A stretch of DNA of 64,000 bases from an uncultured Candidatus Woesearchaeota archaeon (lineage in GTDB: Archaea; Nanobdellota; Nanobdellia; Woesearchaeales; UBA10107): NCBI GenBank assembly GCA_963835585.1, contig CAWIGF010000001.1, positions 226,281 through 290,280 of the forward strand, read 5' to 3'. The number at the start of each line of letters is the position of its first letter. Positions within the stretch are counted from its first letter, which is position 1. This document shows, in pieces, positions 3,030 through 56,949 of this stretch. The notes under the pieces are model-generated. The model searched no databases, was not told where the DNA came from, and was given only the letters and a program-made list of their open reading frames with translations. The position numbers were made by a program, and so were the translations under genes.

Positions 3030-3037
3030 CAAAGAAT

Positions 3038-4089: not shown

Positions 4090-4201
4090 AGTACAATGTA
4101 TTGACCCTAATCTTTATATATGTTGTAATGATTATTTCATTTAAATAGAGGCGACTATATAATAATTTGTTGCTATAAAGTAGTGGTATAAAAAGGGCAG
4201 T

Positions 4202-10284: not shown

Positions 10285-10374
10285 TGGGATAGGCCGGATT
10301 TGAACCAGCGACACCACGAGTTCTGCGATTTTATCACTTCAGTCGTGTGCTCTCCCAGGCTGAGCTACTATCCC
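10285..10374 (-). tRNA. tRNA-Phe (GAA) with 16-nt intron at canonical 37/38 position
   Basis: The minus-strand sequence GGGAUAG-UA-GCUC-AGCCUGGGA-GAGC-A-CACGA-CUGAAG-[UGAUAAAAUCGCAGAA]-C-UCGUG-GUGUC-GCUGG-UUCAAAU-CCGGC-CUAUCCC-A folds as a cloverleaf. The T-loop UUCAAAU is canonical. CCA is not encoded. Confidence 0.8.
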
Positions 10375-30266: not shown

Positions 30267-30701
30267 ATGGCAAATAAGACAGCAAAGAAAGGCGATACTG
30301 TTCGCGTGGACTATACAGGCAAGCTCGAGACCGGGGAGGTCTTCGACTCTTCTAAAGGAAAAGAACCCCTTGAATTTGAACTTGGTTCTGGAAAAGTTAT
30401 ACCTGGATTCGATGATGGAATCATAGGAATGAAAGAAGACCAGGAAAAAGACATTACAATCAGCCCTGAAAAAGGGTATGGAAACAGGAGCGATAATTAC
30501 ATCAAAGAAATTCCTAAAAACAGCGTTCCAGAAAAAATAAAGTTGGAAAAAGGAATGATTTTATTATTCAAGCGACAGGATGGGATGACTATGCCATGCA
30601 CAGTAAATGAAATAGGGAAGGATACAATAAAAGTTGACTTTAACCATCCACTCGCAGGAAAGACACTCAAATTCAACGTGAAATTAATTCACATCAAATA
30701 A
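30267..30701 (+). CDS. FKBP-type peptidyl-prolyl cis-trans isomerase
   Basis: GDTVRVDYTGKLETGEVFDSS...LEFELGSGKVIPGFDDGIIGM is the FKBP domain signature; 144 aa. Confidence 0.85.
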   Translation: MANKTAKKGDTVRVDYTGKLETGEVFDSSKGKEPLEFELGSGKVIPGFDDGIIGMKEDQEKDITISPEKGYGNRSDNYIKEIPKNSVPEKIKLEKGMILLFKRQDGMTMPCTVNEIGKDTIKVDFNHPLAGKTLKFNVKLIHIK

Positions 30702-30708: not shown

Positions 30709-31965
30709 TCAACTTACGTTGCTTGGCTGGTATTCTGGTTGCTGTGGAGGCATAGATGGAGATTTTGGAGGACCCCTTCTCAAATAGAAAATCAGGAATA
30801 TATTTACAATTACAAGAACTGCTACAGCAATTATCAACAAAGAGAGAGATGATCCAAATCCTTGATTTGTCCCAGTTACCGCATTACCATTTATGTTTCC
30901 TTTCGTGACGGAAAGCGTGTCAGGATTTACCTGCATTGAGAATGTATTCTCTGAAGCCTTTCCATTGTAGTTCAATGTCGCAAACAAATTATATGCGCCC
31001 GGTTGTAGATTTGTCGTATCCCAATATCCTGTCAGCGTCGCAGATGATAGTGAAGGAACATCAACTGGTAAAGTTTGGAAATTTCCATATACATTGCTTG
31101 CAGTATCCTTTACGACAATAGTTGCAGATACACTATCAATTTGATCTGACCAATGATTGTAGACATTGACGTCCATCCTGTTAATTCTGCCAAGTATAAA
31201 CTGCGGAGAGCTGATAGACTCGATTTCAATGAATTTACCTCCCACAGTAAAAGATGAATGAAGATCTATTGTTTTGTCCCCGTATATGATTGTCGTAAGG
31301 GCGACATACTCTCCTGGAGGAACTGACAAGAGTATCGATTTTGTTTCCTTTCTCTCTATGCCCGGACCTAAAGGATCATAATCAGTATGATAAGTTGCTA
31401 TTGTATCTCCGTTTTGATTGATAATCTGAACATCCGCGGAAGGCGTTACCGTCTCCGATCCTTCATTCGTGAAAGCGTACGTGAGCTCAAGGTCATTCGT
31501 TTCCGGATCATTTGTAGTAAATGTAGCAGTCATGTACTGTCCAGGGATAGGCACATTGATTACTAATTGATGAACAATGGCCACCTCCCCAAATATAGTA
31601 GTCCCTTGAGGCTGAACAGAGGAAGAAGATTGCGCCGTGACTATTTCAACAGTATTTGCGCCAGGCTGCAACACAGCAAAGGGAATGTCAACTGAATACG
31701 AAATCGTTGCCTGGTCGTCAGTTGGACTAAGATGGATTGAACTGTTCGACAGATTTACATAACTTTGCCATTCCCCTCTTACATATATCGTCAAGTCAAG
31801 ATCTTGGTGTTCCGTGTTCATTATTGTAAAACTATAATCGTGTTTGAAGTCAGCAGTAGTATCTGCGACTATTTTTGCCGGCGTAACACCGAATGCATGC
31901 GCTGAGACAAGCGAACTAAGTAAAAATAACACCCACACAAAAATAAATCCAGTTCGCTTCATCAT
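30709..31965 (-). CDS. cell-surface protein with signal peptide and C-terminal TM anchor; paralog of 28478-29449
   Basis: Signal peptide MMKRTGFIFVWVLFLLSSLVSAHA. The C-terminal GFGSSLSLLIIAVAVLVIVNIFLIFYLRRGPP is followed by a Pro/Gln tail. The start overlaps the stop of the upstream giant-gene segment by 4 nt. Confidence 0.65.
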   Translation of the reverse strand: MMKRTGFIFVWVLFLLSSLVSAHAFGVTPAKIVADTTADFKHDYSFTIMNTEHQDLDLTIYVRGEWQSYVNLSNSSIHLSPTDDQATISYSVDIPFAVLQPGANTVEIVTAQSSSSVQPQGTTIFGEVAIVHQLVINVPIPGQYMTATFTTNDPETNDLELTYAFTNEGSETVTPSADVQIINQNGDTIATYHTDYDPLGPGIERKETKSILLSVPPGEYVALTTIIYGDKTIDLHSSFTVGGKFIEIESISSPQFILGRINRMDVNVYNHWSDQIDSVSATIVVKDTASNVYGNFQTLPVDVPSLSSATLTGYWDTTNLQPGAYNLFATLNYNGKASENTFSMQVNPDTLSVTKGNINGNAVTGTNQGFGSSLSLLIIAVAVLVIVNIFLIFYLRRGPPKSPSMPPQQPEYQPSNVS

Positions 31966-34900
31966 GATTCGACTCCATACACAGTTATTGTTGATACCTT
32001 CAGGCCAGGAGGTTCACCATTTGGAACAGTCACATTGAGATCAATTGCTGCAGTATTGTTGTAAGGAGGGAAATTAAGATAAGCAATGACAGACTTTGGA
32101 GTTGATGTCATAGGCGTCCAAGTCATATTTGAATACGTTGTATTAAATGCGTTAAACGTATTACTTGAATTAGTTGTATTGGCTTTGAACATGAATGTTG
32201 TGTTCCCTAATCCTGAAAGGTTAAACAATGTTGTCGCATTGATTGATACATTCACGAGCACGTTCGAAAGGCTTTGAACTATGAACGGAGGTGGATTGTT
32301 GTTTACTGTTGTGTTGGTTTGTCCAGGAATCATGTTTCCGAAATTAGAGAAGTTCTGCGTCAGGTTTATGTTGACATTTACTTGTATTGAGAAGTTGAAT
32401 GTTGATGAGAATGAGCTGTTCAATGTTCCATCGTTTGCCTCAACGTTCCAGAAATATACTCCACACTTATCATTCGTTGACAGAACAGGAGTTGTGTAAT
32501 TTGTCGCGCTCACTCCTGTGAAGAACTGATTTGCACAGAACTGGCTAGTTAGATTGATGTTGTAAGTCAACGTATCACCGTCAGCGTCAGATGATGCATT
32601 CCACAATAATAAAGGCTGAATTGCAGTTAGCGAACTATTGCCATTGCTTGGAAGGACCAACACTGGAGCAGTAGGTGCTGAGTTAAGAACAACCAAATTA
32701 TTAGAGCAAACAGTTGATCCGTCCTGTGTTCCGTCGTTCGGTGTTATGCATGCAGTCCAATTTTGACCTTTTTTCAACATAGACGAGTCCATGATGTATG
32801 ATTGGTTGTTGTAGATGTTCAGGATTTCCTGTGCAGACAATGTACGATTGAAAATCATTACGTTGTCTATTGAGCCGTTGAAATACGTTGGAAGCTGTGA
32901 AGCTATTCCGATTGTGAAATCTCCTGCATATCCTTGCGTGTTTCCCGCCGACATAGAACTCGAGGTTCTTTGTGATCCATCAACCCATATTTGCGCAGTC
33001 CCGTTTGTATTCCAAGTTCCGACTAAAAAGTGCCACTTACTGTCGTTGTAAGCATCTGTTGAGTCAGTTATTCCTCCTTGCGGGTAAAGATACATAGTTA
33101 TATGTCCGGCTTGTATATACAATTCCTTGTCGTGCGTTCCTCCAGTTGGGAGACCATTGGTAAATCCTAATATACTTCCTGAGTTACTTGTTTTAAACCA
33201 CGCCACGAGTGAAAGATTGTATACTACCTCACTCGCAGTTGTGTTTGACCATATGTAACTATTATTTCCATTAAACTGATAATCTCCGAATCCGTTGTAT
33301 CCACCTGTTGAATTCCATGTTGCATTGATTACAGTTCCATTATTTCCATAAGTTGAGTAATCCCTTGTCCATGTCGAGTTGGAGCCACCTTCGAATGGCA
33401 TGTTCAAGACAGCTATTGAAGTTCCATTCAATTTCCAGTCAGTGATGTTGATGACCGTATAACCACCTGGGCTTGTTGAGTTCCAAGATAGAGTTAGATT
33501 TTCAGAGGAGGTATTTGTTCCAAACGTCGAGTTCAAAAGGACATTTCCAACAATGAAGGGAAGCTGACGCGTCGCGTTCACGAAGAATGTGAAAGTCTTG
33601 TTGTTTGCAGGATTGGATCCATTTACAACGACCGAGACTGTGTATTGGCTACCTGTGCTGAATAATTGGCTGAACATGCTTGTGAATCCTGATGTCAACG
33701 TCTGTACAAATGTCAGGATATTGTTGATGAACCAGTTGAACGTGAGCGCTTCTGGATATAATTCAGTTGCGGTTATGTTGAATGTCAAATTGGTTGACGC
33801 TGAAATATTCGTACTTATCGAAACATTGATCTGATTCGTGATGTTCTGCAATCCTCCTGTCGCGTTAGGATAGAATGACGTCAGACTGATGTTGTTCAGG
33901 ACAAGCAAGGAATTGGAGCAGACAGTACTTCCATCTTGCGTTCCATCATTTGGAGTTATGCAGGATGTCCAGTTCTGGTTTGGTTGAAGCATGGATGAGT
34001 CCATAATATATGATTGGTTTTGATATATGTCTTTAATTTCTTGAGGAGATAATGTGCGATTGAAAATCAGAACATTGTCTATTGAGCCGTTGAAGTATAC
34101 ACCATCACCTCTCTTTCCTATATATGCAATTGACATAGAACTCGTTGAAGTCGCATTAGCAACTAAAACACCATTGACATATAGCAGCTGGGTTGTGGCA
34201 TTCTGCACAGCAGCAAGATAAGTCCAAACTCCCGGCGTTGCTGCATACGCACCATTAGCAGCAGAATCAAATTGCCAAGCCCCACTACCACCCTCCTGAA
34301 GCCAAGAGTTTGTTGCGGTTCCATTATTTATTATAGCTGCACCCACTACTATGCTTGTCGGTTTCGCCCATACACTAAGGGTATACACGCTAATAGCGGA
34401 AGGCAAGCTTGCATTCACAAAGCTGCTGATGCCGTTGAATTGATAATCTCCGAATCCGTTATACCCGTCAGTCGAATTCCACGTCGCATTCATAACAGTC
34501 CCATTATTGCCGTATGTGGAATAGTCTCTTGTCCATGTGGAGTTAGAGCCGCCTTCGAAGGGCATGTTCAAGACAGCAATCGAGGTTCCACTTATTCTCC
34601 AGTCAGTTATGTTGATTAAATTAGATGTATATGATGTTGAGTTCCAAGATACAGTAAGATTGTCAGTAGTGAGGTTATTTCCCGATGTAGAATTCAACAA
34701 CACTACGCTGTTCACAATAAATGGAGGTTGTGATGTCAGATTCAAATAGAAACTGAATGTCTGGTTGTTCGCTGAATTGCTTCCATTGACTGTCACCGAG
34801 ACATTATATAATCCAGATGTGCTGAAAAGCTGGCTGAACATGGATGTGAACCCAGATGTCAGTGTCTGCACAAATTTCAGGACATTATTTATGAACCAGC

Positions 34901-35291
34901 TGAATGTGAGTGCTTCTGGATAAGACTCTGTTGCTGTTATGTTGAATGTCAAATTGGTTGTTGCTGAAGTATTCGTATTTATCGAAACATTGATCTGATT
35001 CGTGATGTTCTGCAATCCTCCTGTCGCGTTAGGATAGAATGACGTCAGACTGATGTTGTTCAGGACAAGCAAGGAATTGGAGCAGACAGTACTTCCATCT
35101 TGCGTTCCATCATTTGGAGTTATGCAGGATGTCCAGTTCTGGCCTGGCATGAGTTCCTGCGAAGCCATGACGTAACTTTGATTATGATAAATATTAAGGA
35201 TTTCTTGAGGGGATAATGCTCGGTTGTATATTTGAACATTATCAATGATTCCCTGTATAATTTGACCAACCAGGACTATGATCCATTCCAA
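31962..35291 (-). CDS. C-terminal segment (1109 aa) of the giant LamG-repeat surface protein locus; out of frame with the upstream segments, so a continuation or pseudogene fragment
   Basis: It starts mid-domain (…IDNVQIYNRALSPQEILNIY) with no signal peptide. It carries LamG_3-like repeats and shares identical blocks of 150-400 nt with 36937-37330. Confidence 0.5.
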   Translation of the reverse strand: MEWIIVLVGQIIQGIIDNVQIYNRALSPQEILNIYHNQSYVMASQELMPGQNWTSCITPNDGTQDGSTVCSNSLLVLNNISLTSFYPNATGGLQNITNQINVSINTNTSATTNLTFNITATESYPEALTFSWFINNVLKFVQTLTSGFTSMFSQLFSTSGLYNVSVTVNGSNSANNQTFSFYLNLTSQPPFIVNSVVLLNSTSGNNLTTDNLTVSWNSTSYTSNLINITDWRISGTSIAVLNMPFEGGSNSTWTRDYSTYGNNGTVMNATWNSTDGYNGFGDYQFNGISSFVNASLPSAISVYTLSVWAKPTSIVVGAAIINNGTATNSWLQEGGSGAWQFDSAANGAYAATPGVWTYLAAVQNATTQLLYVNGVLVANATSTSSMSIAYIGKRGDGVYFNGSIDNVLIFNRTLSPQEIKDIYQNQSYIMDSSMLQPNQNWTSCITPNDGTQDGSTVCSNSLLVLNNISLTSFYPNATGGLQNITNQINVSISTNISASTNLTFNITATELYPEALTFNWFINNILTFVQTLTSGFTSMFSQLFSTGSQYTVSVVVNGSNPANNKTFTFFVNATRQLPFIVGNVLLNSTFGTNTSSENLTLSWNSTSPGGYTVINITDWKLNGTSIAVLNMPFEGGSNSTWTRDYSTYGNNGTVINATWNSTGGYNGFGDYQFNGNNSYIWSNTTASEVVYNLSLVAWFKTSNSGSILGFTNGLPTGGTHDKELYIQAGHITMYLYPQGGITDSTDAYNDSKWHFLVGTWNTNGTAQIWVDGSQRTSSSMSAGNTQGYAGDFTIGIASQLPTYFNGSIDNVMIFNRTLSAQEILNIYNNQSYIMDSSMLKKGQNWTACITPNDGTQDGSTVCSNNLVVLNSAPTAPVLVLPSNGNSSLTAIQPLLLWNASSDADGDTLTYNINLTSQFCANQFFTGVSATNYTTPVLSTNDKCGVYFWNVEANDGTLNSSFSSTFNFSIQVNVNINLTQNFSNFGNMIPGQTNTTVNNNPPPFIVQSLSNVLVNVSINATTLFNLSGLGNTTFMFKANTTNSSNTFNAFNTTYSNMTWTPMTSTPKSVIAYLNFPPYNNTAAIDLNVTVPNGEPPGLKVSTITVYGVES

Positions 35292-35734
35292 GATAAAAAG
35301 GATCTATAAGTTATGGAGATTGGTCCATGTCGCTGCAATACTATTGTGCATCGAGCGCTCCGTTGACAAAATGGATATATTTATGTTGTTGTCATGTGAA
35401 GGCAACATGGTACCATATGTCCTGTGTTCAGGTTCGTGCTCCCTGTGAGTTGGGCTCCTGCCGTTTATTCTCACCATAAGAGTATTTGAGGAGCCAGTAT
35501 AGAACCCGAATGAAATCTCTCCCTGCGAACCTGTTAGAGGTCCTATTGAAAAATAGCCCAGACATTGAAATTACTAACTGGCAGAGTATACCCAAGCCAT
35601 GAAAGTAATATTAAGGTTGAGTTAAGTTGAGACTCTGGCTGAATGGTATTGTAATGTATGATGAATTTACATTATGTGAAATAATATGCGCCGTGACCAT
35701 CATATCCTCACTGTCATATTCCATGTCGCATTGA
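35292..35734 (-). pseudogene. decayed copy of one adhesin repeat unit (homologous to 37590-38160) with multiple indels; no open frame
   Basis: DNA is alignable to 37590-38160 at over 90 percent identity, but several 1-3 nt indels interrupt every frame. Confidence 0.55.
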
Positions 35735-37021
35735 CTACAGTTCCATTATTGCCATATGTAGAATAGTCCTCTGTCCAAGTAGAAGTAGAGCCCCTTCAAA
35801 TGGCATGTTTAGAACTGCAATTGAAGTTCCGTTCAATCTCCAGTCTGTTATATTGATTAAATTAGATGTATACGATGTTGAGTTCCAAGATACTGTTAGA
35901 TTTTCATATGTAAAGTTTGTTCCATAAGTTGAATTTAAGATGACATTATTAACAAAAGGTGGTTGTGATGTCAGATTCAAATAAAATGTGAATGTCTTGT
36001 TGTTCGCTGGATTAGAGCCATTTACAATTACCGAAACATTATATGATCCGGATGTGCTGAACAGCTGGCTGAACATGGATGTGAATCCAGATGTTAGTGT
36101 CTGCACAAATTTCAGGATATTGTTGATGAACCAGTTGAACGTGAGCGATTCCGGATAAGATTCAGTTGCAGTTATGTTGAATGTCAAATTTGTTGCTGCT
36201 GATGTGTTTGTATTTATTGAGACATTGATTTGATTCGTGATGTTCTGCAATCCTCCTGTAGCATTAGGATAGAATGATGTCAGGTTGATTTTGTTAAGGA
36301 CGAATAATGAGTTGGAGCAGGCAGTACTTCCATCTTGGGTTCCATCATTTGGAGTTATGCATGCTGTCCAGTTCTGGCCTGGCTGCAGCATTGATGAGTC
36401 CATGATGTATGATTGGTTTTGGTATATGTTGAGGATTTCTTGCGGCGTTAATGCTACATTGTAGATCTGGACACTGTCAATCGAGCCATTGAAGAATTGA
36501 TTTATTCCAGGATCACCAGAACCAATCCATGTATTCGGACCTACGTAAGTTATAGGACCGGATGCAGCAATCGTTCCATTCTGGCGCCCGTTGAGATATA
36601 CAGTCAGTGCTGAACCGTTATATGTCATTGCGATGTAAGACCATGTTTTAATTGGAATAGCTGTATTTCCACTGAGTGATATCCATGCTGAACCATTGTA
36701 GATGGCGGCGCCGATATTCTGCGCCAGTGTATTAAACTCATCACCGAACGCCAAATAAAATGGTGCATTTTTGGAAATGACCGTCCCTATTTGTGTTGTA
36801 GTTGGATATATCCATGCAGAAAGAGTTACGGCATTTGCTAATGTAGGAACTCCCAATATAGGAATTATATAACTATTATACCCATTGAACATATATGCCC
36901 CATGTCCGTCATATCCTCCAGTCGAATTCCACGTCGCATTCATAACAGTCCCATTATTGCCGTATGTGGAATAGTCTCTTGTCCATGTGGAGTTAGAGCC
37001 GCCTTCGAAGGGCATGTTCAA
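35735..37021 (-). CDS. internal segment (428 aa) of the giant surface protein locus, LamG_3-like repeats; separated from the upstream ORF by a short frameshifted stretch
   Basis: The ORF opens on TTG inside a repeat, and homology continues seamlessly from the 3835-aa ORF. Ends in IDSVQIYNVALTPQEILNIY-type motifs. Confidence 0.5.
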   Translation of the reverse strand: MNMPFEGGSNSTWTRDYSTYGNNGTVMNATWNSTGGYDGHGAYMFNGYNSYIIPILGVPTLANAVTLSAWIYPTTTQIGTVISKNAPFYLAFGDEFNTLAQNIGAAIYNGSAWISLSGNTAIPIKTWSYIAMTYNGSALTVYLNGRQNGTIAASGPITYVGPNTWIGSGDPGINQFFNGSIDSVQIYNVALTPQEILNIYQNQSYIMDSSMLQPGQNWTACITPNDGTQDGSTACSNSLFVLNKINLTSFYPNATGGLQNITNQINVSINTNTSAATNLTFNITATESYPESLTFNWFINNILKFVQTLTSGFTSMFSQLFSTSGSYNVSVIVNGSNPANNKTFTFYLNLTSQPPFVNNVILNSTYGTNFTYENLTVSWNSTSYTSNLINITDWRLNGTSIAVLNMPFEGALLLLGQRTILHMAIMEL

Positions 37022-37330
37022 GACAGCAATCGAGGTTCCACTTCATTCTCCAGTCAGTTATGTTGATTAAATTAGATGTATATGATGTTGAGTTCCAAGA
37101 TACAGTAAGATTTTCAGTATGTGAGGTTATGTTCCCGATGTAGAATTCAACAACACTACGCTGTTCACAATAAATGGAGGTTGTGATGTCAGATTCAAAT
37201 AGAAACTGAATGTCTGGTTGTTCGCTGAATTGCTTCCATTGACTGTCACCGAGACATTATATAATCCAGATGTGCTGAAAAGCTGGCTGAACATGGATGT
37301 GAACCCAGATGTCAGTGTCTGCACAAATTT
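36937..37330. repeat. about 390-bp near-identical intragenic repeat (partner 34477-34867) spanning the frame-disrupted junction of the giant gene
   Basis: Direct comparison shows over 95 percent identity. The 37021-37127 stretch carries three 1-nt insertions relative to the 34570-34680 copy. Confidence 0.7.
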
Positions 37331-43300: not shown

Positions 43301-46300
43301 ATTCGAACAAAGCGTAGGACCATCGACCTTGTCATCGTTTGGAGTCACACATGCAGTCCAGTTGTCACTTGCATTAAGCTCCTTGTTTGACATTATATAA
43401 CTTTGACTATCGTTGATGTTCAAAATTTCTTGAGGAGATAATGCTCTGTTGTAGATTTGGACATTGTCGATTGTACCATTAAAGTAATTACCCAGTCCGA
43501 TGCTACCGATATATAGATTATCAGTACCACTCGGCAATGATCCACTAGCTCCTATGGTTTCCGTATTATTGATTCCATCAATATATAATGTTGCGTCTCC
43601 ATTATTATATACTGCTACAAAATAATGCCAGGTGTTATATGAAGGAGCATATGTACTAAGTGTGTCATAAGAGACTGCATTTGTCCATCTGAAGAACACG
43701 AATCCTTCCTCTGCACCATAAGTTGGTCCAAGCAACTGCGCATAGTAAGATGTAGGATATTTGTCTATGAACACAGGATAATCCGTATTTGGTGCAGGAT
43801 ATTTAGCCCACCAAGAAACGGACATTCGTGAAGCGCCATCAAAAACACCTTTGTTAGACATGTTGATATAACTAATTGCCCCGTCAAATTGGTATGCTCC
43901 CTGCCCATTATACCCGCAACTAGAACACCATGTTGCGTTCACAACCGTTCCATTATTGCCGTATGTGGAGTAATCCCTCGTCCAATTGGAAGTAGAACCA
44001 CCTTCAAATGGCATATTCAGGACAGCTATTGAGATATTGTTTAATCTCCAGTCTGTGATGTTGACAATAGGGTCCATATCAGGATCTGATAAATTATAAT
44101 ACACTGTAAGATTCTCTGTTGTGAGATTCGTGCCGAACGTGGAATTTATGAAAACGGATGTTATGTTAGGAGGGGTGTTGTTTGTGATAAAGTATGTGGA
44201 CCAGTGCGTTACCTTGAAAGTTACGAAGATATTATTAGGATTTCCAGAGCATGCGGGATTGAAGCATGAAGTTCCTTCGCAAGTCGTATAATTTTGAAGC
44301 CTTGCCAATGTCACGTTTTTTGTGAAGTTGTTGAGCATCTTTATTGAATAATTCTGGCAACTGAAATCCTTGCTGTTCAGGGTCAGAAAGTTTGTTGAAG
44401 TTATATTCAAAGGATTCTCCGCGCTTGAGTTTAATGAAGCTATTGAATCGTTCAGATAGATGTTTTGTATGCTTGTAAAGTTAATAGGGCCGTGGAAAGA
44501 AAGAGTATTGTTCCTTTCGGAAAGGTTCAGATAGTCATTATTTCCCCCGTTTATTTTAACGTATGAATCTAACGTGTTGTTTGACCAGAAATTATTGAAG
44601 ATGACATTACCAGTTGTCCCAGCAAGAAAAATAATTCCATACGTGTTATTAAATAAACTATTGTTCCCTATAGAGGAGCCAGTGGCCCCACCATCTAAAG
44701 CAATTCCTCCAGTTTGGTTGTACATTATATTGTTAAAAATAATCGCAGTAGTGCCGCCAACTAGCTCAATTCCATAAGGGCTATTACTTGCAATCGTATT
44801 GAATGTTGCATTAACGACAGCTCCAGCAGATGTATAAATGCCATCTTGCATATTAGACACTATAGTATTGTTGAACAGTGGAATTTCACCGCTGCCACCT
44901 GAAAAGTATACCCCATATTCCGAGCCATTCGCGATTGTATTTTGTGTGATTATATTACCAGGATAACCTCCTAGTCCTGCTTCAAGATCAAATCCTTCAA
45001 CAGAAACATTGTTTATTACATTGTTTGAAATAATTGTATAAACTGCAGGAGGGTGTATGTCTATCCCTATACCTTGAGAGAAAGAATTGGTTATTTTGTT
45101 ACTTGTGATTGTTGTCTGGTTAGCTGCCACGTAAATGCTCGTGTTGCATGAAAAGAACGTATTGTTTGCGACTGTAAGGTTAATTGTTGGATAGACTATA
45201 TTCAGACAATCAACTGAGTTGCTGGAAAATGTATTGTTGAGAATATTATCATTGAAGCTTGGATTGGCAGTTCCACCACCACCGAAATATATTCCAGTTG
45301 AATCGTTGATAAAATTATTTTGAAGGATATACGAGCTGTTTACCGAATAGAACTGCATGGCCGTGCTTGCATTTTCTATAGTGCAGCCAATTATGGTTAT
45401 ATTGTTGCTGTTGGAAGAAGACAGATAAGTAAATCCTGCTCCGTTGATTATTGTGTTGTAACAGTTGATATTTACATTGCTTGTGTTATATATCATTGAT
45501 GTGTTCAGGTAATATGTTCCAGGGCATAATGTGATGTTTCCTGTTAGATTAAGTCCGTTCGTTGGTACAGTACATGTTAATACTTGGAATGTGAATGTCT
45601 GGTTGTTTGCCGGATTCGAACCATTTACTACAGCAGTAACGTTGCTCAGACCTATAAGGCTTGATATTGCCTCTGTAAATGAGCTTGTAAATGCCGATGT
45701 CAAAGTCTGGACAAATGTCGATATTTGGTTCACGAACCATGTGAATGTCAACGGCTCGTAGCTTGATTCTGTAGCGGTTACATTGAACGTCATGCTTCCG
45801 GAACTGTTGTAGCTCGCGTTAATGAACACAGTATTTACTCCTGGTGTCGTATTCTGCGTCTGACCCGTAGTGGCATTCGGAGCATAAGATATTATCTGTA
45901 TGTGGTTGAGCATTAAGACTTGGTTGGATATGTTAGTCACTCCGTTAACACCATTTTCTGGAGTTACCGCGACAGTCCAGTTTTCTCCCGGTCTTGTGTT
46001 GTTTGCAATAATGACATTCCTGTTGGATGCGTTGAACATCAAAATTTGCTGAGGGGTGAATGTACGGTTATATATTCCTACGAAGTCCATCTGTCCTATG
46101 AATCCCATTCCAATCAATATAGGATTTCCACTTGAGATATTTACCCAAGATATTGTAGAAGTATTGACTAACACTCCGTTGACATAAAGCTCCATTCTAT
46201 TTCCATCAAATATGTTTACAAATACATCTGACCAATTATTCAAGGATATTGCAGTGCTTGAATTAGCTTTATACAAAAATGTTGATGCAACTGATGATGC

Positions 46301-48634
46301 ATTCATTGTGAAATAAGGCCTTAAACTTCCATCAAAAGCAATTATCCAACCAAGAGTACCTGCCGAAGTAGCTTTTTGCATAATTGTTGTAGCTACAGAA
46401 GCAGTAGGAGCAACCACAACTTCAATAGATACATTTCCTGTAAGATTTAAATAATTCTTATCCGGAACTGATATTGTTCCAGCGCTGGTGAAATTGTAAA
46501 CACAAGGCTGACCTCCCAATCCTGATTTGAGAGATACAGCTCCAGAGACTGATGCAGTATCATTGAAGGTGGAATAATCAGTCGCGTTACTGCCTGAAGT
46601 TGGGAGATATGTCATTGCCAAATTAAGGAAATCCATGGATTGATTATTTATACGCCAATCAGTAACATTATCAATTGTCGAGCCGCCTACGTTGAAGTAA
46701 ACAGTAAGATTCTCGTCAGTATAATTAGTCCCAAGTGTTGAGTTCAAGAATATACTAAGAACAGAAATTGGTGTTGGTAATGTCGTGAAATTATAGATTC
46801 CAGACGTGTTGCATGCTCCTGCAGGAGTACATGATGTCACATTATAGAAATAAATAGTGTTGTTCACCAGTCCTGACACAGAAACATTGTGCACAAGTCC
46901 ATTGTCATTCACGGATATGTTAAATCTCAGCAGATTTGAGCTTTGGTTTCCGTATAACAACGTTGTGTTTGAATTGAGTGAGGTTGTCCAGTTTATCATG
47001 ACGCTCTGGTTTGTTATGCTGTAATTCACAACTCCGGAAATTCCAGGAACCATTGCAGTTCCTGATATGTTGACGTTATCAAGATAGCATCCCCTTCCTA
47101 CGGTAGTGCTAGGAGTGCAATTGAAAGCCAAACGGAAACTTGGATTGTTGCTTGAGTTGCCTGCAGTAAGGAGATAATTATAATTAGTGTAATTAGGAAT
47201 ATTTGTCGTGTTCATCAACAATCCCCAGGCAGTTCCATTCCACCAATTTGCTCCGAAAAATGAGACCACTCCTGTCGTGTTGGCATAGAACGAAATGTTA
47301 ATGTTCTGATAGTAAGCAGTGCTCATATTCAGGTAGAGATATGCTATAGTAGTTCCTGATGAATTGTCCCTTGCCTCATATGTTCCTGCGTAAGGATCTG
47401 TTTTGTTTACTTCCCAACCACTTGATATTGTCCAGGCATTTGACGAGAATAATCCTGTCTCGAAACCATCGAAGAAAGTTCCATTGTTCGCTGTCAGATT
47501 ATTTGGGGCATCATGGATGTAGTCGAATTGTATGAATGGATTCGCATCCGATTCGTTAGGGTCTTGGATCTTGAAGTCAAAAGTATCTTCTGGTTGGTCA
47601 AGGCCGCTAATGCTTACATATTGCTGAGATCCTGAAACAATATCGCTCGTTCCGACCTTCTGATCAGTTCCTGCAACGTATACGTCGAAGTATGCTGAAG
47701 TGTTCGAGCGGGCAACGAAATCAATTACATTGTCATTTGTAAGATTCATCTCATATGTGACCCTGACAAACTCATTTTGGTAGATTGGATCGCTCCAATT
47801 GTTGTCGATTGCCTCTATCTCTGGATATATATCAGAAATGAACGTGTAATTCTCATCCAAATGCTGTGCGTCTATAGCTGCAATAATCTCAGCAAAAGCA
47901 GGGTCATCTTGGGTAAGGGTGAAATTATATTCCTGCCCGGGAATTATCTTCTCGAAAAATTCCCATGTCCCATTGCAAATTCTATTGTCAAAATCCCATT
48001 CCCTGCATTTGTACAATTGGTTGCCAACTGCTATTGCTGTTAATGTTGCATTTGTAAAGTTGACCTGTGTAGGATCAACCGCATATACTTGCTTCCAATC
48101 GGTGTCTTTGTTTAGTCTGGCAATTGAATTGGGAGTGTCATCAACCCTGAGCTTAGAAAGCGTACCTTTATCGACACCATGGAACTCTATACCATGGATT
48201 GGTGTTTTTTTAAGTGTTACAAAAGCAGTTACTTCTGTGTTGTTTCCTATTGTCTCGTTCGAGAAACTAACATTCGCTGAAATCGTGTTGTTATTTGCAT
48301 CAACGACAAAAAATCCTGTTTGAGCTGGCTCCTTTACAAACATGAAAAACCCAAATAAAATAATAATCGCAACCAGACTGACTTTTGCAAAATTAAGATG
48401 AGTTTCCATCTCTATTCTCTTTTTCAGGGAAACTGCCTTTTCCAGATAGCTATTTATTTCATCTTTGAATTCGTGCTCGGATTTACTCTTCAGGATATTT
48501 TGTTTCAGCAGACTATGCTCGAGCTTGCTTATTTTTTTGTTGCTAAGAAGGGAATCTATATAGTCAAGTTTCTTTTCCATGTCCAAGCAAGCTCTTATGC
48601 GTGCATTTATTTCAGCGATATATTCCTTATCCAC
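37127..48634 (-). CDS. giant cell-surface adhesin-like protein (3835 aa): N-terminal cytoplasmic coiled-coil, single TM, parallel beta-helix region, then about 12 or more LamG_3 (concanavalin-A-like) plus Ig-like repeat modules
   Basis: TM helix LVAIIILFGFFMFV at about residue 85. PbH1-like repeats (NNFINDSTGIYFGGGG..., NNTFSSN...). The recurring module ITDWRLNGTSIAVLNMPFEGGSNSTWTRDYSTYGNNGTV...IDNVQIYNRALSPQEILNIY matches the Laminin_G_3 C-terminal signature. Extreme N-x-S/T sequon density. Confidence 0.8.
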   Translation of the reverse strand: MDKEYIAEINARIRACLDMEKKLDYIDSLLSNKKISKLEHSLLKQNILKSKSEHEFKDEINSYLEKAVSLKKRIEMETHLNFAKVSLVAIIILFGFFMFVKEPAQTGFFVVDANNNTISANVSFSNETIGNNTEVTAFVTLKKTPIHGIEFHGVDKGTLSKLRVDDTPNSIARLNKDTDWKQVYAVDPTQVNFTNATLTAIAVGNQLYKCREWDFDNRICNGTWEFFEKIIPGQEYNFTLTQDDPAFAEIIAAIDAQHLDENYTFISDIYPEIEAIDNNWSDPIYQNEFVRVTYEMNLTNDNVIDFVARSNTSAYFDVYVAGTDQKVGTSDIVSGSQQYVSISGLDQPEDTFDFKIQDPNESDANPFIQFDYIHDAPNNLTANNGTFFDGFETGLFSSNAWTISSGWEVNKTDPYAGTYEARDNSSGTTIAYLYLNMSTAYYQNINISFYANTTGVVSFFGANWWNGTAWGLLMNTTNIPNYTNYNYLLTAGNSSNNPSFRLAFNCTPSTTVGRGCYLDNVNISGTAMVPGISGVVNYSITNQSVMINWTTSLNSNTTLLYGNQSSNLLRFNISVNDNGLVHNVSVSGLVNNTIYFYNVTSCTPAGACNTSGIYNFTTLPTPISVLSIFLNSTLGTNYTDENLTVYFNVGGSTIDNVTDWRINNQSMDFLNLAMTYLPTSGSNATDYSTFNDTASVSGAVSLKSGLGGQPCVYNFTSAGTISVPDKNYLNLTGNVSIEVVVAPTASVATTIMQKATSAGTLGWIIAFDGSLRPYFTMNASSVASTFLYKANSSTAISLNNWSDVFVNIFDGNRMELYVNGVLVNTSTISWVNISSGNPILIGMGFIGQMDFVGIYNRTFTPQQILMFNASNRNVIIANNTRPGENWTVAVTPENGVNGVTNISNQVLMLNHIQIISYAPNATTGQTQNTTPGVNTVFINASYNSSGSMTFNVTATESSYEPLTFTWFVNQISTFVQTLTSAFTSSFTEAISSLIGLSNVTAVVNGSNPANNQTFTFQVLTCTVPTNGLNLTGNITLCPGTYYLNTSMIYNTSNVNINCYNTIINGAGFTYLSSSNSNNITIIGCTIENASTAMQFYSVNSSYILQNNFINDSTGIYFGGGGTANPSFNDNILNNTFSSNSVDCLNIVYPTINLTVANNTFFSCNTSIYVAANQTTITSNKITNSFSQGIGIDIHPPAVYTIISNNVINNVSVEGFDLEAGLGGYPGNIITQNTIANGSEYGVYFSGGSGEIPLFNNTIVSNMQDGIYTSAGAVVNATFNTIASNSPYGIELVGGTTAIIFNNIMYNQTGGIALDGGATGSSIGNNSLFNNTYGIIFLAGTTGNVIFNNFWSNNTLDSYVKINGGNNDYLNLSERNNTLSFHGPINFTSIQNIYLNDSIASLNSSAENPLNITSTNFLTLNSKDFSCQNYSIKMLNNFTKNVTLARLQNYTTCEGTSCFNPACSGNPNNIFVTFKVTHWSTYFITNNTPPNITSVFINSTFGTNLTTENLTVYYNLSDPDMDPIVNITDWRLNNISIAVLNMPFEGGSTSNWTRDYSTYGNNGTVVNATWCSSCGYNGQGAYQFDGAISYINMSNKGVFDGASRMSVSWWAKYPAPNTDYPVFIDKYPTSYYAQLLGPTYGAEEGFVFFRWTNAVSYDTLSTYAPSYNTWHYFVAVYNNGDATLYIDGINNTETIGASGSLPSGTDNLYIGSIGLGNYFNGTIDNVQIYNRALSPQEILNINDSQSYIMSNKELNASDNWTACVTPNDDKVDGPTLCSNKILILDAPYISAIYPNSSMQTQNIPYTTTSISIAENVSVANLTFNATGNYIDYSISGPLTFSWFVNQVLALVQTLTSGLTSMFSQLFAATGQYNITVVVNNSYTNNSFTFNLNVTDVNPIVNSVFINSSKRTNTTFENITAYYNETDLAKLPVQNITDWRNNGTSIAILNMPFEVGSNSTWTEDYSTYGNNGTVNNAIWNSTGGYNGFGAYYFDGSGNAADVDEYINVSNLVMGSVNTRTFWFYPQSTDPTSDQYMLDFGGNNYWVSLYGGNTGDTQLNVVGGAGSITYIYGQTPINKTQWYFVAVTTNSNNILTIYVNGNYDSSGMITSGTPGMLDIGRYGGPGYGYGFNGSISDVQIYNRALSPQEIYNLYNNKPYILANTELSPGDNWTACVTPDDGTLEGNTVCSNNIYINNIQLISFYPNKTGQTQNISYMQTNSSSVEPATSANATFVMTANTNQPALTFSWFVNQVLTFVQTLTSSFISTFFNLFSTPGLYNVTVVVNASNPATNQTFRFFVNATNYQPPYANSTLLNSTYGFNTTLENLLFSWNSTSPIGYSLANIIDWRISGNSTMALNMPFEGGSNSTWTRDYSTWGNNGTLNNLVWSATGGYDGYGGYSFSGGYINVSNSQSLNLTDNFTLSAWIYLNDLNTYYFIMAKDSPGSSAGNFEFFPNPSTGALQLYYQNGTNSADYSIYSSPTSMTSNSWNYAVVTIGSGLVSFYLNGLPAGSFAQQGGAPVPNTYPLLIGTRYDFYDYLNGQIDNVQIYRQALSPQEILNIYNNQSYVIDSSMLQVGQNWTACITPTDEIRDGATVCSNNVVIKSGLPVANNITLNSTFGTNYTDENLTVYYNSSSPLNRNITNITDWRMNGNSIALLNMPFEGGSNSTWTRDYSTWGNNGTGYNTIWNATGGYNGYGAYMFNGINAYMLIPSVVGIVNGFTISTWIKENQVAAITNEVVFEDDDVLFRCNIEAPGICDASTLENGGYNPSGPLATTSPISTNWVMLTFVYNNLNISWYVNGVYNTSRYDSGNTLTGGQVPYAALGGGNGGYFNGSIDNLLVFNKSLSSQEILNLYNNQSYIMASQELQPNQNWTACITPNDGTTDGSTVCSNTVFTLNRIKYISFYPNATGQVQNISSGQINVSITGASSTVNNLTFNVTVSESSNEPLTFRWFINQVLTFVQTLASGFTSMFSQLFSKSGLYNVSVTVNGSNSANNVTFKFFVNATYLPPSISFVLLNSTYGYNTSFENLTTYWSVTPGTNAKVINITDWKLNGTSIAVLNMPFEGGSNSTWTRDYSTYGNNGTVINATWNSTGGYNGFGAYMFNGTGFINTTLTMNLNETINYTIMAWFYANNCNNTVSNYPRVLYHPELSIFMNSTCGIIAGYMNATTYTLMNINVTSAKRWNFVAVTRLRTATSVWNYTAYFMGKSVLSVNLSTMPAVANASFYIGANNTGNRFNGTIDNVLVLNQALSPQEILNIYNNQSYVIDSSMLSPGQNWTSCITPNDGTSDGTTVCSNNLYINNVQITNFYPNATGQLQSLTSGQVNVSIIESSSPFTNLVFNITAISGQPSLTFTWFVNQVSTFVQTLASGSTDMFSNLFSKSGLYNVTVVVNGSMPYNATFTFLLNATSFLPPNATSILLNSTYGTNTTAENLTVYWNSTDSNNVSIVNITDWRLNGTSIAVLNMPFEGGSTSTWTEDYSTYGNNGTVVNATWNMTGGYDGHGAYYFNNVNSSYITIPFSQSLNLTQPNITCMAWVYLPVSNFNAGLFFKGPLTGSQGEISFGFYTGSSNTLMVRINGGAQLTGSANLNTGQWYHVAFTYNNINISIFVNGALDNSIAANGPISITNNPFYLGIYHSPGWSFTGMIDNAQIYNRALSPQEILNIYHNQSYVMASQELMPGQNWTACITPNDMSQDGSTVCSNSVFTLNMLNYTSFYPNQSGLVQSTNGAINVSLNLNTSSTTNLTFNVTASESSSEPLTFTWFVNQVSKFVQTLTSGFTSMFSQLFSTSGLYNVSVTVNGSNSANNQTFSFYLNLTSQPPFIVNSVVLLNSTSGT

Positions 48635-48902
48635 CTGCTATTGCCTCTCTTTTTTTCTTTGCCCTGTGATAGCACGTCCATATAGTCCTGTCATCCCTGT
48701 GCAGCAATTCCGCTATTTCATGATACGATAATCCGTAATTTTCTTTCAGAAATTCGACAATTGCTTCCAGGGAAGCAAGAGTCCTGTCTGCGAACACAGA
48801 AATGGGAACAGTGTATTTTTCACTTAATTTTTGAGACAGAACAAAAGCGGTATCAGATGTATTAGTCCTCGATTTAGAATGTTTCTCCACGTCTAACACC
48901 AA
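48627..48902 (-). CDS. small helix-turn-helix DNA-binding regulator (sigma-70 region-4-like HTH)
   Basis: 91 aa; the C-terminal GLSYHEIAELLHRDDRTIWTCYHRAKKK is a classic HTH. Its stop overlaps the giant gene start by 8 nt. Confidence 0.6.
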   Translation of the reverse strand: MVLDVEKHSKSRTNTSDTAFVLSQKLSEKYTVPISVFADRTLASLEAIVEFLKENYGLSYHEIAELLHRDDRTIWTCYHRAKKKREAIAGG

Positions 48903-48906: not shown

Positions 48907-48990
48907 ACTTACAATGTAAGTTTTTCATATATAAATCTTTTTAAAATAACTTACAATGTAAGTAAGATTTTAAATACTTACAATGTAGGT
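48907..48990. promoter_or_regulatory. three copies of the palindrome ACTTACAaTGTAAGT flanking an A/T-rich TATA-like element upstream of the HTH gene (putative operator array)
   Basis: Copies at 48907-48921, 48949-48963 and 48976-48990 (the third has one mismatch). A TATATAAA sequence at about 48926-48934 lies about 25-30 nt upstream of the ATG at 48902. Confidence 0.55.
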
Positions 48991-56885: not shown

Positions 56886-56949
56886 CCACGACCTGCTGCT
56901 TTTTCAAGAGATACGAAGCAGCCGCTATAACTAACTAAGCCACGAGGGC
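56865..56949 (-). tRNA. tRNA-Thr (CGU) candidate with 11-nt intron at 37/38; atypical T-loop (G55)
   Basis: The minus-strand sequence GCCCUCG-UG-GCUU...AGC-G-GCUGC-UUCGUA-[UCUCUUGAAAA]-A-GCAGC-AGGUC-GUGGG-UGCAACU-CCCAC-CGAGGGC-U has acceptor, anticodon and T stems that all pair. The T-loop UGCAACU deviates from UUCRAAU, so a pseudo-tRNA is possible. Confidence 0.5.

What the first reader, a model, noticed from the sequence alone, without database searches (positions are those of the whole stretch)
31962..48634. Giant adhesin-like surface protein locus (11.5 kb intact ORF; about 16.7 kb if downstream segments are bridged)
The window's largest feature is a 3835-aa minus-strand ORF. Homology continues through two further ORFs (428 and 1109 aa) to 31962. 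The product has four parts in order. First, an N-terminal cytoplasmic coiled-coil of about 80 aa. Second, one TM helix. Third, a right-handed parallel beta-helix region (repeated NN(T/F)xxxN, GIYFGGGG-type turns). Fourth, at least 12 tandem modules ending in IDNVQIYNRALSPQEILNIY, the hallmark C-terminal strand of Laminin_G_3/concanavalin-A-like lectin domains. Each module is followed by an Ig-like spacer domain (LTFxWFINxV...TSGFTSMFSQLF). N-x-S/T sequons occur every few residues, so the protein is probably heavily N-glycosylated. Giant LamG and beta-helix surface proteins are a hallmark of host-attached or episymbiotic archaea and of cell-cell adhesion. This one dominates a co-oriented operon with an HTH regulator upstream and a smaller anchored paralog downstream.
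Basis: partly seen in the sequence, partly recalled or inferred. Interest (0 to 1): 0.75.

Follow-up and report, generated by a model that had tools for sequence, protein, structure and literature searches.

The report
Giant lectin-repeat surface protein, DPANN archaeon
This is one very large gene (about 16.7 kb, about 5,550 amino acids) of a tiny, probably host-dependent archaeon; it encodes a membrane-anchored, sugar-coated surface fibre built from eleven lectin-like domains, a type of protein already known from such archaea, and the breaks that split it into three reading frames look like sequencing errors.

Summary
A 3,835-aa minus-strand ORF (37127-48634) is followed by homologous ORFs of 428 and 1,109 aa. 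Pfam confirms 11 Laminin_G_3 domains (7+1+2 as called, 7+4 after repair) and a right-handed beta-helix.

The three ORFs are almost certainly one gene. Deleting 22 single-base insertions and restoring 2 deletions gives an uninterrupted 5,550-aa ORF. All these indels lie in two patches inside a near-identical 1.4-kb intragenic duplicate. A 1,013-aa homologue matches both the start of the first ORF and the end of the last. Insertions outnumber deletions 22:2, with few substitutions, which fits uncorrected read errors better than decay.

The host is a Woesearchaeota-type DPANN archaeon. The protein has a single N-terminal TM anchor. Sequons number 0 per 100 aa inside and 6-7 per 100 aa outside. 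The LamG frameworks are conserved but their cores are hypervariable.

- There are 11 LamG domains, not at least 12.
- Nine spacers follow them, so not every module has one.
- The 418-aa downstream gene is a conserved partner, not a paralogue.

Adhesion to a host is inferred, not shown. Giant and multi-LamG surface proteins are already described in DPANN, so this is a new member of a known kind.

The parts
31962..48634 (-). One giant gene (16,673 nt as assembled; 16,653 nt, 5,550 aa, 604.6 kDa, pI 4.34 after removal of indels), now split into ORFs of 3,835, 428 and 1,109 aa
   Evidence: ORFs. The repair gives one ORF with no internal stop. The N-terminus of the first ORF and the C-terminus of the last ORF both match one 1,013-aa homologue, P0004.
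48335..48634 (-). N-terminal charged segment (aa 1-79, sequon-free, presumed cytoplasmic) and the single TM helix (aa 80-100, 48335-48397)
   Evidence: Hydropathy scan: this is the only segment with a Kyte-Doolittle score above 1.9. There are 0 sequons in aa 1-100. The GTG start overlaps the stop of the HTH gene by 8 nt. The coiled coil was not tested.
47480..48262 (-). Conserved membrane-proximal N-terminal domain (aa 125-385), all-beta, with no Pfam, NCBIfam or PDB sequence match. Its second half has a galactose-binding-domain-like (CBM32/discoidin-type) jelly roll
46781..47014 (-). FN3-like domain (aa 541-618)
   Evidence: Pur_ac_phosph_N scores 29.6 bits (cut-off 30) and fn3 is weak. The assignment is borderline.
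46025..46567 (-). First LamG domain (aa ~690-870), upstream of the beta-helix, followed by the first LTFxWF spacer (aa ~960)
   Evidence: Motif MDFVGIYNRTFTPQQIL at aa 849. It is one of the 7 Laminin_G_3 stretches.
44528..45181 (-). Right-handed parallel beta-helix (Pfam-matched core aa ~1152-1369; the region spans aa ~1030-1470)
   Evidence: Beta_helix PF13229 at 53.9 bits and NosD PF05048 at 50.9 bits, 3 stretches each.
32691..44203 (-). Ten tandem modules of about 300-409 aa. Each holds a short conserved N-flank, a LamG_3 domain, a conserved post-LamG segment and, in 8 of the 10, a PKD-like spacer. The repeat period is 1,164-1,235 nt
   Evidence: Repeat families. Module boundaries. Alignment A2. 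LamG_3 hits. PDB relatives include 4qvs_A, an S-layer domain protein (E 9e-14), plus arabinanase, sialidase and pentraxin lectin domains. Between modules the LamG cores are 21% identical and the flanks 52-81%.
37044..37131 (-). Indel patch A: three single-base insertions (37131 C, 37120 A, 37044 G) in a block otherwise identical to 34541-34718. The inserted C creates the TAA that ends the 3,835-aa ORF
   Evidence: Alignment; event list.
35253..35794 (-). Indel patch B: 19 single-base insertions, 2 deletions and about 6 substitutions relative to the clean copy at 37700-38250. It produces the gap between the 428-aa and 1,109-aa ORFs
   Evidence: Alignment; event list; frame map.
34469..35900 (-). 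Lower copy of a near-identical 1.4-kb intragenic duplicate. The upper copy is 36919-38335, at an offset of 2,435-2,453 nt. Both indel patches lie inside this pair
   Evidence: Exact shared blocks of up to 200 nt; alignments.
31965..32744 (-). Conserved C-terminal tail (about 260-280 aa, two beta-rich domains), the predicted distal tip
   Evidence: 31% identity, E 2e-26, to aa 735-1005 of P0004. A weaker match to P0001. No Pfam or NCBIfam hit.
30709..31965 (-). Partner gene, 418 aa: an N-terminal signal-like segment, beta-rich body, C-terminal TM helix (aa ~368-395) and a short Pro-rich tail. Its start overlaps the giant's stop (ATGA)
   Evidence: ATGA overlap. A homologous gene lies directly after the giant's homologue in L001 (E 5e-39) and in L009. 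No similarity to the giant. Only sub-threshold WxLIP_HBD and FixG_C hits.
48627..48902 (-). 91-aa helix-turn-helix protein directly upstream, overlapping the giant's start codon
   Evidence: Sigma70_r4_2 at 26.8 bits (cut-off 25.7), plus HTH_23 and HTH_11. It was not found in the homologous loci.
48908..48988 (-). Three copies of the palindrome CTTACA-T-TGTAAG around a TATA-like TTTATATAT. This is a candidate promoter and operator for the HTH-giant-partner unit
   Evidence: Sequence. Five strand-matches against 0.43 expected, and none elsewhere in the window. The function is inferred.

Best explanation
The interval 31962-48634 is a single gene of a Woesearchaeota-type DPANN archaeon. It encodes a surface protein of about 5,550 aa and 0.6 MDa.

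Architecture and topology. The protein is held in the membrane by one N-terminal TM helix, with a short N-terminus inside and everything else outside. In order it carries:
- a conserved membrane-proximal domain with a CBM32-like jelly roll;
- an FN3-like domain;
- a LamG domain plus spacer;
- a right-handed beta-helix;
- ten tandem LamG-plus-spacer modules;
- a conserved C-terminal tail at the distal end.

Glycosylation and binding surface. The ectodomain is densely N-glycosylated. The LamG frameworks are conserved, but each LamG core differs, so the fibre displays about ten distinct lectin-like surfaces.

Proposed function (inferred). It is a long, multivalent glycan- or surface-binding adhesin. 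It would mediate contact between the small archaeon and a host cell or substrate. It is co-expressed with a conserved, C-terminally anchored 418-aa partner protein and possibly controlled by the adjacent HTH protein.

The breaks. The two interruptions that split the gene into three ORFs are most likely uncorrected sequencing or polishing errors. They sit in a near-identical 1.4-kb internal duplicate, so real mutations are the less likely cause.
For: SHOWN.
- ORFs and homology across all three.
- 11 Laminin_G_3 domains and a beta-helix, all above the Pfam cut-offs.
- LamG relatives among solved lectin and CBM-type domains.
- One TM segment.
- Sequons: 0 per 100 aa in aa 1-100 and 6.3-7.3 per 100 aa outside, against 0.3-0.7 in cytoplasmic proteins of the window. 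This is 2.2 times the shuffle expectation, z about 19.
- Removing 22 insertions and restoring 2 deletions gives one stop-free 5,550-aa ORF.
- All indels lie in two patches inside a near-identical duplicate whose sister copies are clean.
- The downstream 428-aa and 1,109-aa frames are otherwise intact. The last 280 aa match the C-terminus of P0004, whose N-terminus matches the giant's N-terminus.
- Other genes in the window are intact: PolB, ValRS, SecD/F and ABCE1.
- An independent Logan contig is 100% identical to the window over 1,608 nt next to the gene.
- Most modules are well diverged at the DNA level, with mean nucleotide identity of 37-76% by region, so most of the array is not prone to collapse.
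- The partner gene is conserved directly after homologues in two other genomes.
- Homologous proteins carrying the N-terminal domain are often giant (median 1,995 aa, maximum 7,172 aa), and 22 of 143 carry the same LamG module.
- DPANN origin.

INFERRED.
- The adhesion function. It rests on LamG and CBM folds and on literature proposing such proteins as DPANN host-attachment factors (PMC5498576, PMC7443923, PMC10266531).
- The artefact reading of the indels. Insertions outnumber deletions 22:2 and indels outnumber substitutions about 3.5:1. This is the opposite of the deletion-biased, substitution-rich decay expected of prokaryotic pseudogenes (established knowledge, for example Mira, Ochman and Moran 2001). 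It is typical of insertion-prone long-read consensus left unpolished where short reads multi-map.
Against: - No ligand, localisation or expression data exist.
- No reads were available, so neither the artefact reading nor the module copy number can be verified.
- The duplicated module could be a real gene conversion or an assembly error.
- The AF2 model of one module was poor (pLDDT 46.6). The split-domain and PKD-like spacer architecture is therefore unconfirmed.
- PKD_4 and FN3 hits are below or at threshold.
- The closest relative, P0001 (73% identity at the N-terminus), is only 992 aa and shows no LamG Pfam annotation, so the LamG array is not conserved in this lineage.
- The partner gene is absent after the homologues in L008 and L019.
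- The HTH gene is not conserved next to any homologue.
- The beta-helix could be catalytic, not structural.
Confidence: 0.6

Rival explanations
1. The frameshifts are real. The gene is a recently inactivated or truncated (possibly phase-varied) locus that yields a 3,835-aa anchored protein with 7 LamG domains, and the downstream 5 kb is a decaying remnant.
For: The sequence as given contains the stop at 37127 and the frame changes. The public gene call on the 339,840-bp source contig is also 3,835 aa (P0155). Surface proteins of symbionts are often variable, and the closest relative has only 992 aa.
Against: There are 22 insertions against 2 deletions, with about 7 substitutions, in patches otherwise identical to sister copies. 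That pattern is unlike natural decay. The insertions are not in homopolymers or simple repeats, as slipped-strand phase variation would require. Outside the two patches, 4.6 kb of downstream frame is stop-free and ends in a conserved tail. The indels are confined to the one stretch where reads cannot be placed uniquely.
Confidence: 0.15
2. The protein is a structural envelope component (an S-layer-associated or glycocalyx fibre) that protects or shapes the cell. It is not a host-recognition adhesin.
For: The best solved relative of the LamG module is an 'S-layer domain-containing protein' (4qvs_A, E 9e-14). Archaeal S-layer proteins contain beta-helix and PKD domains (Jing et al. 2002, cited in PMC5498576). 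The protein is heavily sequon-enriched, like archaeal S-layer glycoproteins. It sits in a cluster of other predicted surface proteins: the 485-aa lipoprotein-like gene and the 418-aa partner.
Against: Ten different LamG cores on conserved frameworks, together with lineage-specific expansion, suggest diversified recognition more than a uniform lattice. S-layer lattice proteins are usually far smaller and highly abundant. No S-layer family model matched.
Confidence: 0.15
3. The protein is a cell-surface enzyme. The beta-helix would be a polysaccharide lyase, hydrolase or depolymerase, and the LamG and CBM32-like domains would be carbohydrate-binding modules that target it to host or environmental polymers.
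For: Right-handed beta-helices are the catalytic fold of pectate lyases and of phage depolymerases (established knowledge). The LamG module resembles accessory domains of arabinanase and sialidases. The N-terminal domain resembles CBM32 and CBM6 modules of glycoside hydrolases and alginate lyases.
Against: Only the generic Beta_helix and NosD models hit. No catalytic family (pectate lyase, GH28, GH or PL) matched at E<=0.01, and the region has no PDB sequence relative. About 85% of the mass is non-catalytic repeat.
Confidence: 0.1

Closest known systems
Multi-LamG / concanavalin-A-like surface proteins of DPANN archaea (Ca. Mancarchaeum Mia14; nanohaloarchaea such as Ca. Nanohalobium, Ca. Nanohalococcus SVXNc)
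   Same: Both are membrane-bound or secreted proteins of DPANN hosts with several LamG/ConA-like domains, often alongside PKD/Ig domains, and many N-glycosylation sites. They are strain-specific and are proposed to mediate host recognition (PMC5498576, PMC7443923, PMC10266531).
   Different: This protein has 11 LamG domains in one polypeptide, whereas 'up to five' are reported for SVXNc. It comes from a Woesearchaeota-type lineage. It combines a beta-helix with a conserved, unannotated N-terminal domain and C-terminal tail. Sequence relatedness to those published proteins was not tested here.
Giant 'SPEARE'-type surface proteins of nanohaloarchaea (8,880-9,409 aa)
   Same: Both are giant, membrane-associated, mostly extracellular beta-rich proteins of DPANN archaea that occupy a sizeable share of a small genome and are thought to act at the host interface.
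   Different: SPEARE-type proteins carry a VirB4/TraG-like ATPase domain and are followed by another VirB4-like ATPase gene. No ATPase, protease or secretion domain was detected here, and the neighbour is a 418-aa anchored beta-rich protein. This protein is not a member of that family.
Bacterial giant repeat adhesins (for example RTX adhesins such as MpIBP, LapA, FrhA and SiiE)
   Same: The design logic is shared: a cell-anchored base, a long extender of tandem beta-sandwich modules, and ligand-binding (lectin-like) domains (established knowledge).
   Different: No RTX repeats, T1SS signal or BIg extender repeats were found. This protein is anchored by an N-terminal TM helix, and its LamG domains are the repeating unit instead of sitting in a distal ligand-binding region. 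The similarity is analogy only.
Archaeal S-layer/surface proteins with beta-helix and PKD domains (Methanosarcina type, Jing et al. 2002)
   Same: Both combine right-handed beta-helix, PKD-like and other beta-sandwich domains in an N-glycosylated archaeal surface protein (cited in PMC5498576).
   Different: This protein is far larger, is dominated by LamG modules, has a single N-terminal anchor, and gives no match to S-layer family models.

Membership tests
Laminin_G_3 / concanavalin A-like lectin-glucanase superfamily (Pfam PF13385) | Profile match above the curated gathering score (27.6 bits) | tested here: met
   419 bits with 7 stretches in the 3,835-aa ORF; 83.5 bits in the 428-aa ORF; 122.5 bits with 2 stretches in the 1,109-aa ORF. 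266.7 bits with 4 stretches in the repaired C-terminal 1,850 aa.
Laminin_G_3 / concanavalin A-like lectin-glucanase superfamily (Pfam PF13385) | Sequence relatives with solved jelly-roll lectin/CBM structures | tested here: met
   The module profile hits 4qvs_A (E 9.1e-14), arabinanase 5hon/5ho0, the sialidase lectin domain 4c1w and pentraxins.
Laminin_G_3 / concanavalin A-like lectin-glucanase superfamily (Pfam PF13385) | Carbohydrate or other ligand binding by the domain | not testable with these tools
   This needs glycan arrays or binding assays. The AF2 model of a module was too poor (pLDDT 46.6) to inspect a binding site.
Right-handed parallel beta-helix (Pfam PF13229 Beta_helix / PF05048 NosD) | Profile match above the gathering score, with several PbH1-type coils | tested here: met
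   53.9 bits (cut-off 25.9) and 50.9 bits (cut-off 23.6), 3 stretches each, on aa 950-1500.
PKD / Ig-like domain (Pfam PF18911 PKD_4) for the LTFxWF spacer | Profile match above the gathering score (27 bits) | tested here: inconclusive
   24 bits, E 4e-5, at aa 3737-3808. The AF2 model of this part has low confidence.
SPEARE-type giant proteins of nanohaloarchaea | VirB4/TraG-like AAA+ ATPase domain in the protein and a VirB4-like ATPase gene downstream (PMC10266531) | tested here: not met
   No ATPase family matched in any segment at E<=0.01. The downstream gene is a 418-aa anchored protein without ATPase hits.
Galactose-binding-domain-like fold (CBM32 / F5/8 type C) for the conserved N-terminal domain | Beta-jelly-roll fold superposable on CBM32/discoidin domains | tested here: met
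Galactose-binding-domain-like fold (CBM32 / F5/8 type C) for the conserved N-terminal domain | Sequence-level membership (Pfam F5_F8_type_C or a CBM family model) | tested here: not met
   No Pfam, NCBIfam or PDB sequence hit for aa 1-700 apart from the FN3-like segment. Identity to the structural matches is 6-15%. It resembles the fold but is not filed as a member.
WxL-interacting protein (WxLIP) family, for the 418-aa partner | Match to WxLIP_HBD (PF11797) above 28.9 bits | tested here: not met
   16.5 bits, E 0.0084. No PDB sequence relative.

The most novel reading that the evidence does not exclude
The array of conserved LamG frameworks with about ten unrelated cores may be a combinatorial host-recognition device. 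Cores would be exchanged or duplicated by intragenic gene conversion; module 8 is a near-exact copy of module 6. Separately, the unannotated N-terminal domain, sometimes with the 418-aa partner, would define a previously undescribed envelope-anchoring system. The domain is shared by more than 2,000 mostly very large protein clusters, and the homologues identified by name are from DPANN genomes.
Probability: 0.15. Interest if true: 0.65.

Novelty: new member of a known kind. Interest (0 to 1): 0.4.

Why it matters
DPANN archaea depend on contact with host cells, and the molecules that make and specify that contact are largely unknown. This locus offers three things.

- It is a clear candidate: at about 5,550 aa it is large even by DPANN standards, with eleven lectin-like domains whose binding cores all differ.
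- It points to a widespread, unannotated N-terminal domain. The family has 2,266 cluster representatives, many of them giant proteins, and sometimes a conserved partner gene. These could be used to find such proteins systematically.
- It is a practical warning. The public gene call (3,835 aa) is probably truncated by insertion errors left in a near-identical repeat, so giant repeat genes in long-read or hybrid MAGs may be under-called.

None of this changes current concepts. It extends a known class.

Tried and rejected
- Tandem Repeats Finder found nothing, because the repeat period of about 1.2 kb exceeds its 500-nt limit. The repeat finder and my own alignments were used instead.
- Exact-product look-ups for the 418-aa partner, P0001, P0028 and the 3,835-aa ORF returned nothing. 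The 339,840-bp source contig and the 681-kb relative could therefore not be read.
- The first genome-contig scan, with the N-terminal 800 aa, found no relative. A metagenome-contig scan with the unique LamG core of module 7 also found none. No independent assembly of the break points was obtained.
- The AF2 model of one module from a 9-paralogue alignment was too poor to use (pLDDT 46.6).
- I first concluded from the word-indexed search (27 hits) that the N-terminal domain family is rare. The exhaustive HMM search then found 2,266 representatives, so I withdrew that conclusion.
- The afdb50 library was not available.
- NCBIfam gave only a far-sub-threshold TafC hit (46 bits against a cut-off of 410), which I did not use.
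- I considered a diversity-generating retroelement as the source of LamG core variation but did not pursue it. The cores differ throughout (21% identity) and not at adenine-templated sites, and no reverse transcriptase was seen among the ORFs scanned. Not every ORF in the window was scanned.
Full report
OBSERVATION. The three minus-strand ORFs are exactly as described: 37127..48634 (3,835 aa, GTG start), 35735..37021 (428 aa) and 31962..35291 (1,109 aa). The translations show the same repeated module running through all three. Pfam finds Laminin_G_3 in the large ORF at E 9.8e-127 (419 bits, 7 stretches), once in the 428-aa ORF and twice in the 1,109-aa ORF. When aa 950-1500 are scanned alone, Beta_helix (53.9 bits) and NosD (50.9 bits) pass their cut-offs.

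ONE GENE, NOT THREE. A three-frame map shows that the coding frame hops between 37130 and 37042, and several times between 35795 and 35303. I aligned these stretches with their sister copies inside the same gene.
- Patch A (37044-37131) differs from the copy at 34541-34718 by three single-base insertions and one substitution. One inserted C creates the TAA that ends the 3,835-aa ORF.
- Patch B (35253-35794) differs from the copy at 37700-38250 by 19 single-base insertions, 2 deletions and about 6 substitutions.
- Removing the 22 insertions and restoring the 2 deletions yields a 16,653-nt ORF of 5,550 codons with no internal stop.

An independent argument points the same way. The N-terminal region of the 3,835-aa ORF and the last ~280 residues of the 1,109-aa ORF both match a single 1,013-aa Pacearchaeota protein, P0004. 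The C-terminal match is 31% identity, E 2e-26, to its residues 735-1005.

ARTEFACT OR MUTATION? Both patches lie inside a near-identical 1.4-kb internal duplicate (34469-35900 against 36919-38335, with exact blocks of up to 200 nt). In each patch the sister copy is clean. Insertions outnumber deletions 22:2, and indels outnumber substitutions about 3.5:1. The insertions are not in homopolymers.

Natural decay of prokaryotic genes is deletion-biased and rich in substitutions (established knowledge). Insertion-dominated errors confined to the place where short reads cannot be placed uniquely are what an unpolished long-read consensus or gap fill looks like.

The rest of the window supports good base quality. 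It has intact long genes: PolB, ValRS, SecD/F and ABCE1. An independent Logan contig from run ERR10755942 is 100% identical to the window over 1,608 nt beside the gene. Outside the duplicate the modules are well diverged at the DNA level, at 37-76% mean nucleotide identity by region, and only about half of identical residues use identical codons. A wholesale chimera of collapsed repeats is therefore unlikely.

I rate the artefact reading at about 0.75. The copy number of the duplicated module cannot be verified without reads. The public gene call on the 339,840-bp source contig is the truncated 3,835-aa product (P0155).

ANATOMY OF THE REPAIRED PROTEIN (5,550 aa, 604.6 kDa, pI 4.34).
- aa 1-79: charged and sequon-free.
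- aa 80-100: the only hydrophobic helix.
- aa 541-618: a borderline FN3-like segment.
- aa ~690-870: one LamG domain, followed by a spacer.
- aa ~1030-1470: the beta-helix.
- aa ~1470-5290: ten tandem modules.
- Last ~260 aa: a conserved tail.

There are 9 LTFxWF spacers, and their PKD-like nature is only weakly supported (24 bits against a cut-off of 27). Because the anchor is N-terminal, the conserved N-terminal domain is membrane-proximal and the C-terminal tail is the distal tip.

GLYCOSYLATION SIGNAL. There are 355 sequons against 158 +/- 10 in shuffles. None lies in the first 100 residues, and the density is 6.3-7.3 per 100 aa in every extracellular region. Cytoplasmic proteins of the same window have 0.3-0.7 per 100 aa. 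This supports both the topology and heavy N-glycosylation, but glycosylation itself is not shown.

MODULE VARIATION. Across nine modules, the LamG N-edge is 81% identical. The C-edge, post-LamG segment and spacer are 60-65% identical. The ~150-column LamG core is only 21% identical. Each module still scores as LamG_3. The fibre therefore carries about ten different LamG cores on a common framework. One core is duplicated almost exactly (modules 6 and 8), which would show that intragenic gene conversion occurs, provided the duplicate is real.

ORGANISM AND RELATIVES.
- The window encodes archaeal PolB, a DnaG-type Toprim protein, ABCE1, and an intein-containing secretion/pilus ATPase.
- ValRS is 100% identical to a protein on a 339,840-bp public contig. 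Its best named relative, at 83% identity, is 'Candidatus Woesearchaeota archaeon'.
- Homologues of the N-terminal domain come from Woese-, Pace- and Nanoarchaeota genomes.
- An exhaustive profile search found 2,266 cluster representatives at E<=1e-3 and 335 at E<=1e-30. Among the top 143, the median length is 1,995 aa, 37 are at least 3,000 aa and the longest is 7,172 aa. Twenty-two carry the same LamG module type.
- In genome loci the domain heads ORFs of at least 3,992, at least 3,894, 3,354 and 2,131 aa. In four loci it is followed directly by LamG modules.
- The closest relative, P0001 (73% identity at the N-terminus), is only 992 aa, so the LamG array is a lineage-specific expansion.

NEIGHBOURS.
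- The 418-aa gene starts in an ATGA overlap with the giant's stop. It has a signal-like N-terminus and a C-terminal TM helix. It shows no similarity to the giant (best E 0.82), so it is not a paralogue.
- A homologue of this gene follows the giant's homologue directly in the Pacearchaeota contig L001 (E 5e-39) and in L009. It does not do so in L008 or L019. It is therefore a partner in some lineages.
- The 91-aa HTH gene (Sigma70_r4_2, 26.8 bits) overlaps the giant's start by 8 nt, but it is not found next to homologues.
- Its upstream region carries three copies of the palindrome CTTACA-T-TGTAAG around a TATA-like box. The palindrome occurs nowhere else in the window. This plausibly marks an autoregulated promoter, which is an inference.

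FUNCTION. The following are shown: the gene is an anchored, extracellular, sequon-rich, beta-rich giant protein with lectin-type domains. The following is inferred: it is a multivalent adhesin that contacts host or substrate glycans.

The inference rests on the known ligand-binding roles of LamG and CBM folds. It also rests on published proposals for DPANN LamG and giant surface proteins (PMC5498576, PMC7443923, PMC10266531). The rivals are a real pseudogene or truncation, a structural envelope fibre, and a beta-helix enzyme with binding modules. They are listed with the tests that would separate them.

COMPARISON AND NOVELTY. Multi-LamG surface proteins (up to five domains) and giant surface proteins (up to 9,409 aa) are already described in DPANN. 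This protein is not a SPEARE-type member, because it has no VirB4-like ATPase. It is a new, unusually LamG-rich member of the known class of DPANN giant lectin-like surface proteins. Three modestly new points stand out:
- the unannotated but widespread N-terminal domain;
- the conserved-framework, variable-core module design;
- the partner gene.

I score interest at 0.4: solid and useful, but not surprising to a specialist.

Noticed in passing
window 48908-48988 (minus strand, upstream of the HTH gene 48627-48902): There are three copies of the 13-nt palindrome CTTACA-T-TGTAAG (48908-48920, 48950-48962, and 48977-48988 with one mismatch) flanking a TATA-like TTTATATAT. The palindrome is absent from the rest of the window (5 strand-matches against 0.43 expected). 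This is a candidate operator and promoter.
   Followed up: partly
window 28478-29449 (-): A 323-aa ORF is 74% identical (E 6e-150) to residues 115-400 of the 418-aa partner gene but lacks its signal peptide and first ~115 residues. It is a truncated paralogue, separated from the partner by an M50 peptidase gene (29533-30159) and an FKBP gene (30267-30701).
   Followed up: partly
window 49034-50491 (-): A 485-aa ORF has a lipoprotein-like N-terminus (…IIGGCS), about 200 aa of Thr/Pro/Ser/Asn-rich low-complexity linker and a beta-rich C-terminal part. It has no Pfam or NCBIfam family. It is probably another surface protein just upstream of the HTH-giant unit.
   Followed up: no
window 4202-8020 (+) and 7981-10263 (+): A type II/IV secretion-family ATPase (T2SSE) is interrupted by an intein with a LAGLIDADG endonuclease domain (Intein_splicing 87.9 bits). 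It is followed by an overlapping 760-aa ORF with no family. This may be a pilus or archaellum-type locus about 22 kb from the giant gene.
   Followed up: no
window 56865-56949 (-) and 10285-10374 (-): Rfam finds two tRNAs, but ARAGORN reports only the one at 10285-10374 (tRNA-Ser, 90 nt). The 85-nt one at 56865-56949 may be atypical or intron-containing, as is common in archaea.
   Followed up: no
window 53983-55557 (+): A 524-aa ORF with no Pfam family has 3.6 sequons per 100 aa and 10.5% Asn, well above the cytoplasmic proteins of the window. It is possibly another glycosylated surface protein.
   Followed up: no
L008:3-8642, L019:1-6423, L011:333-6938: In related DPANN genomes the gene with the conserved N-terminal domain sits next to further very large ORFs (at least 2,880, at least 2,141 and 2,202 aa), so giant surface-protein genes cluster. 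L003, L005, L006, L011 and L012 contain extra partial copies of the first half of the domain.
   Followed up: no
L002, L005, L014 (records CAZNFC010000023.1, CAZGYR/CAYGYR010000010.1, CAYOKQ010000089.1): Three third-party MAG records are labelled 'uncultured Methanosarcinales archaeon'. They carry this domain, which is otherwise found in DPANN-type genomes, at 43-53% identity. This could be mislabelling, bin contamination by an episymbiont, or real transfer.
   Followed up: no
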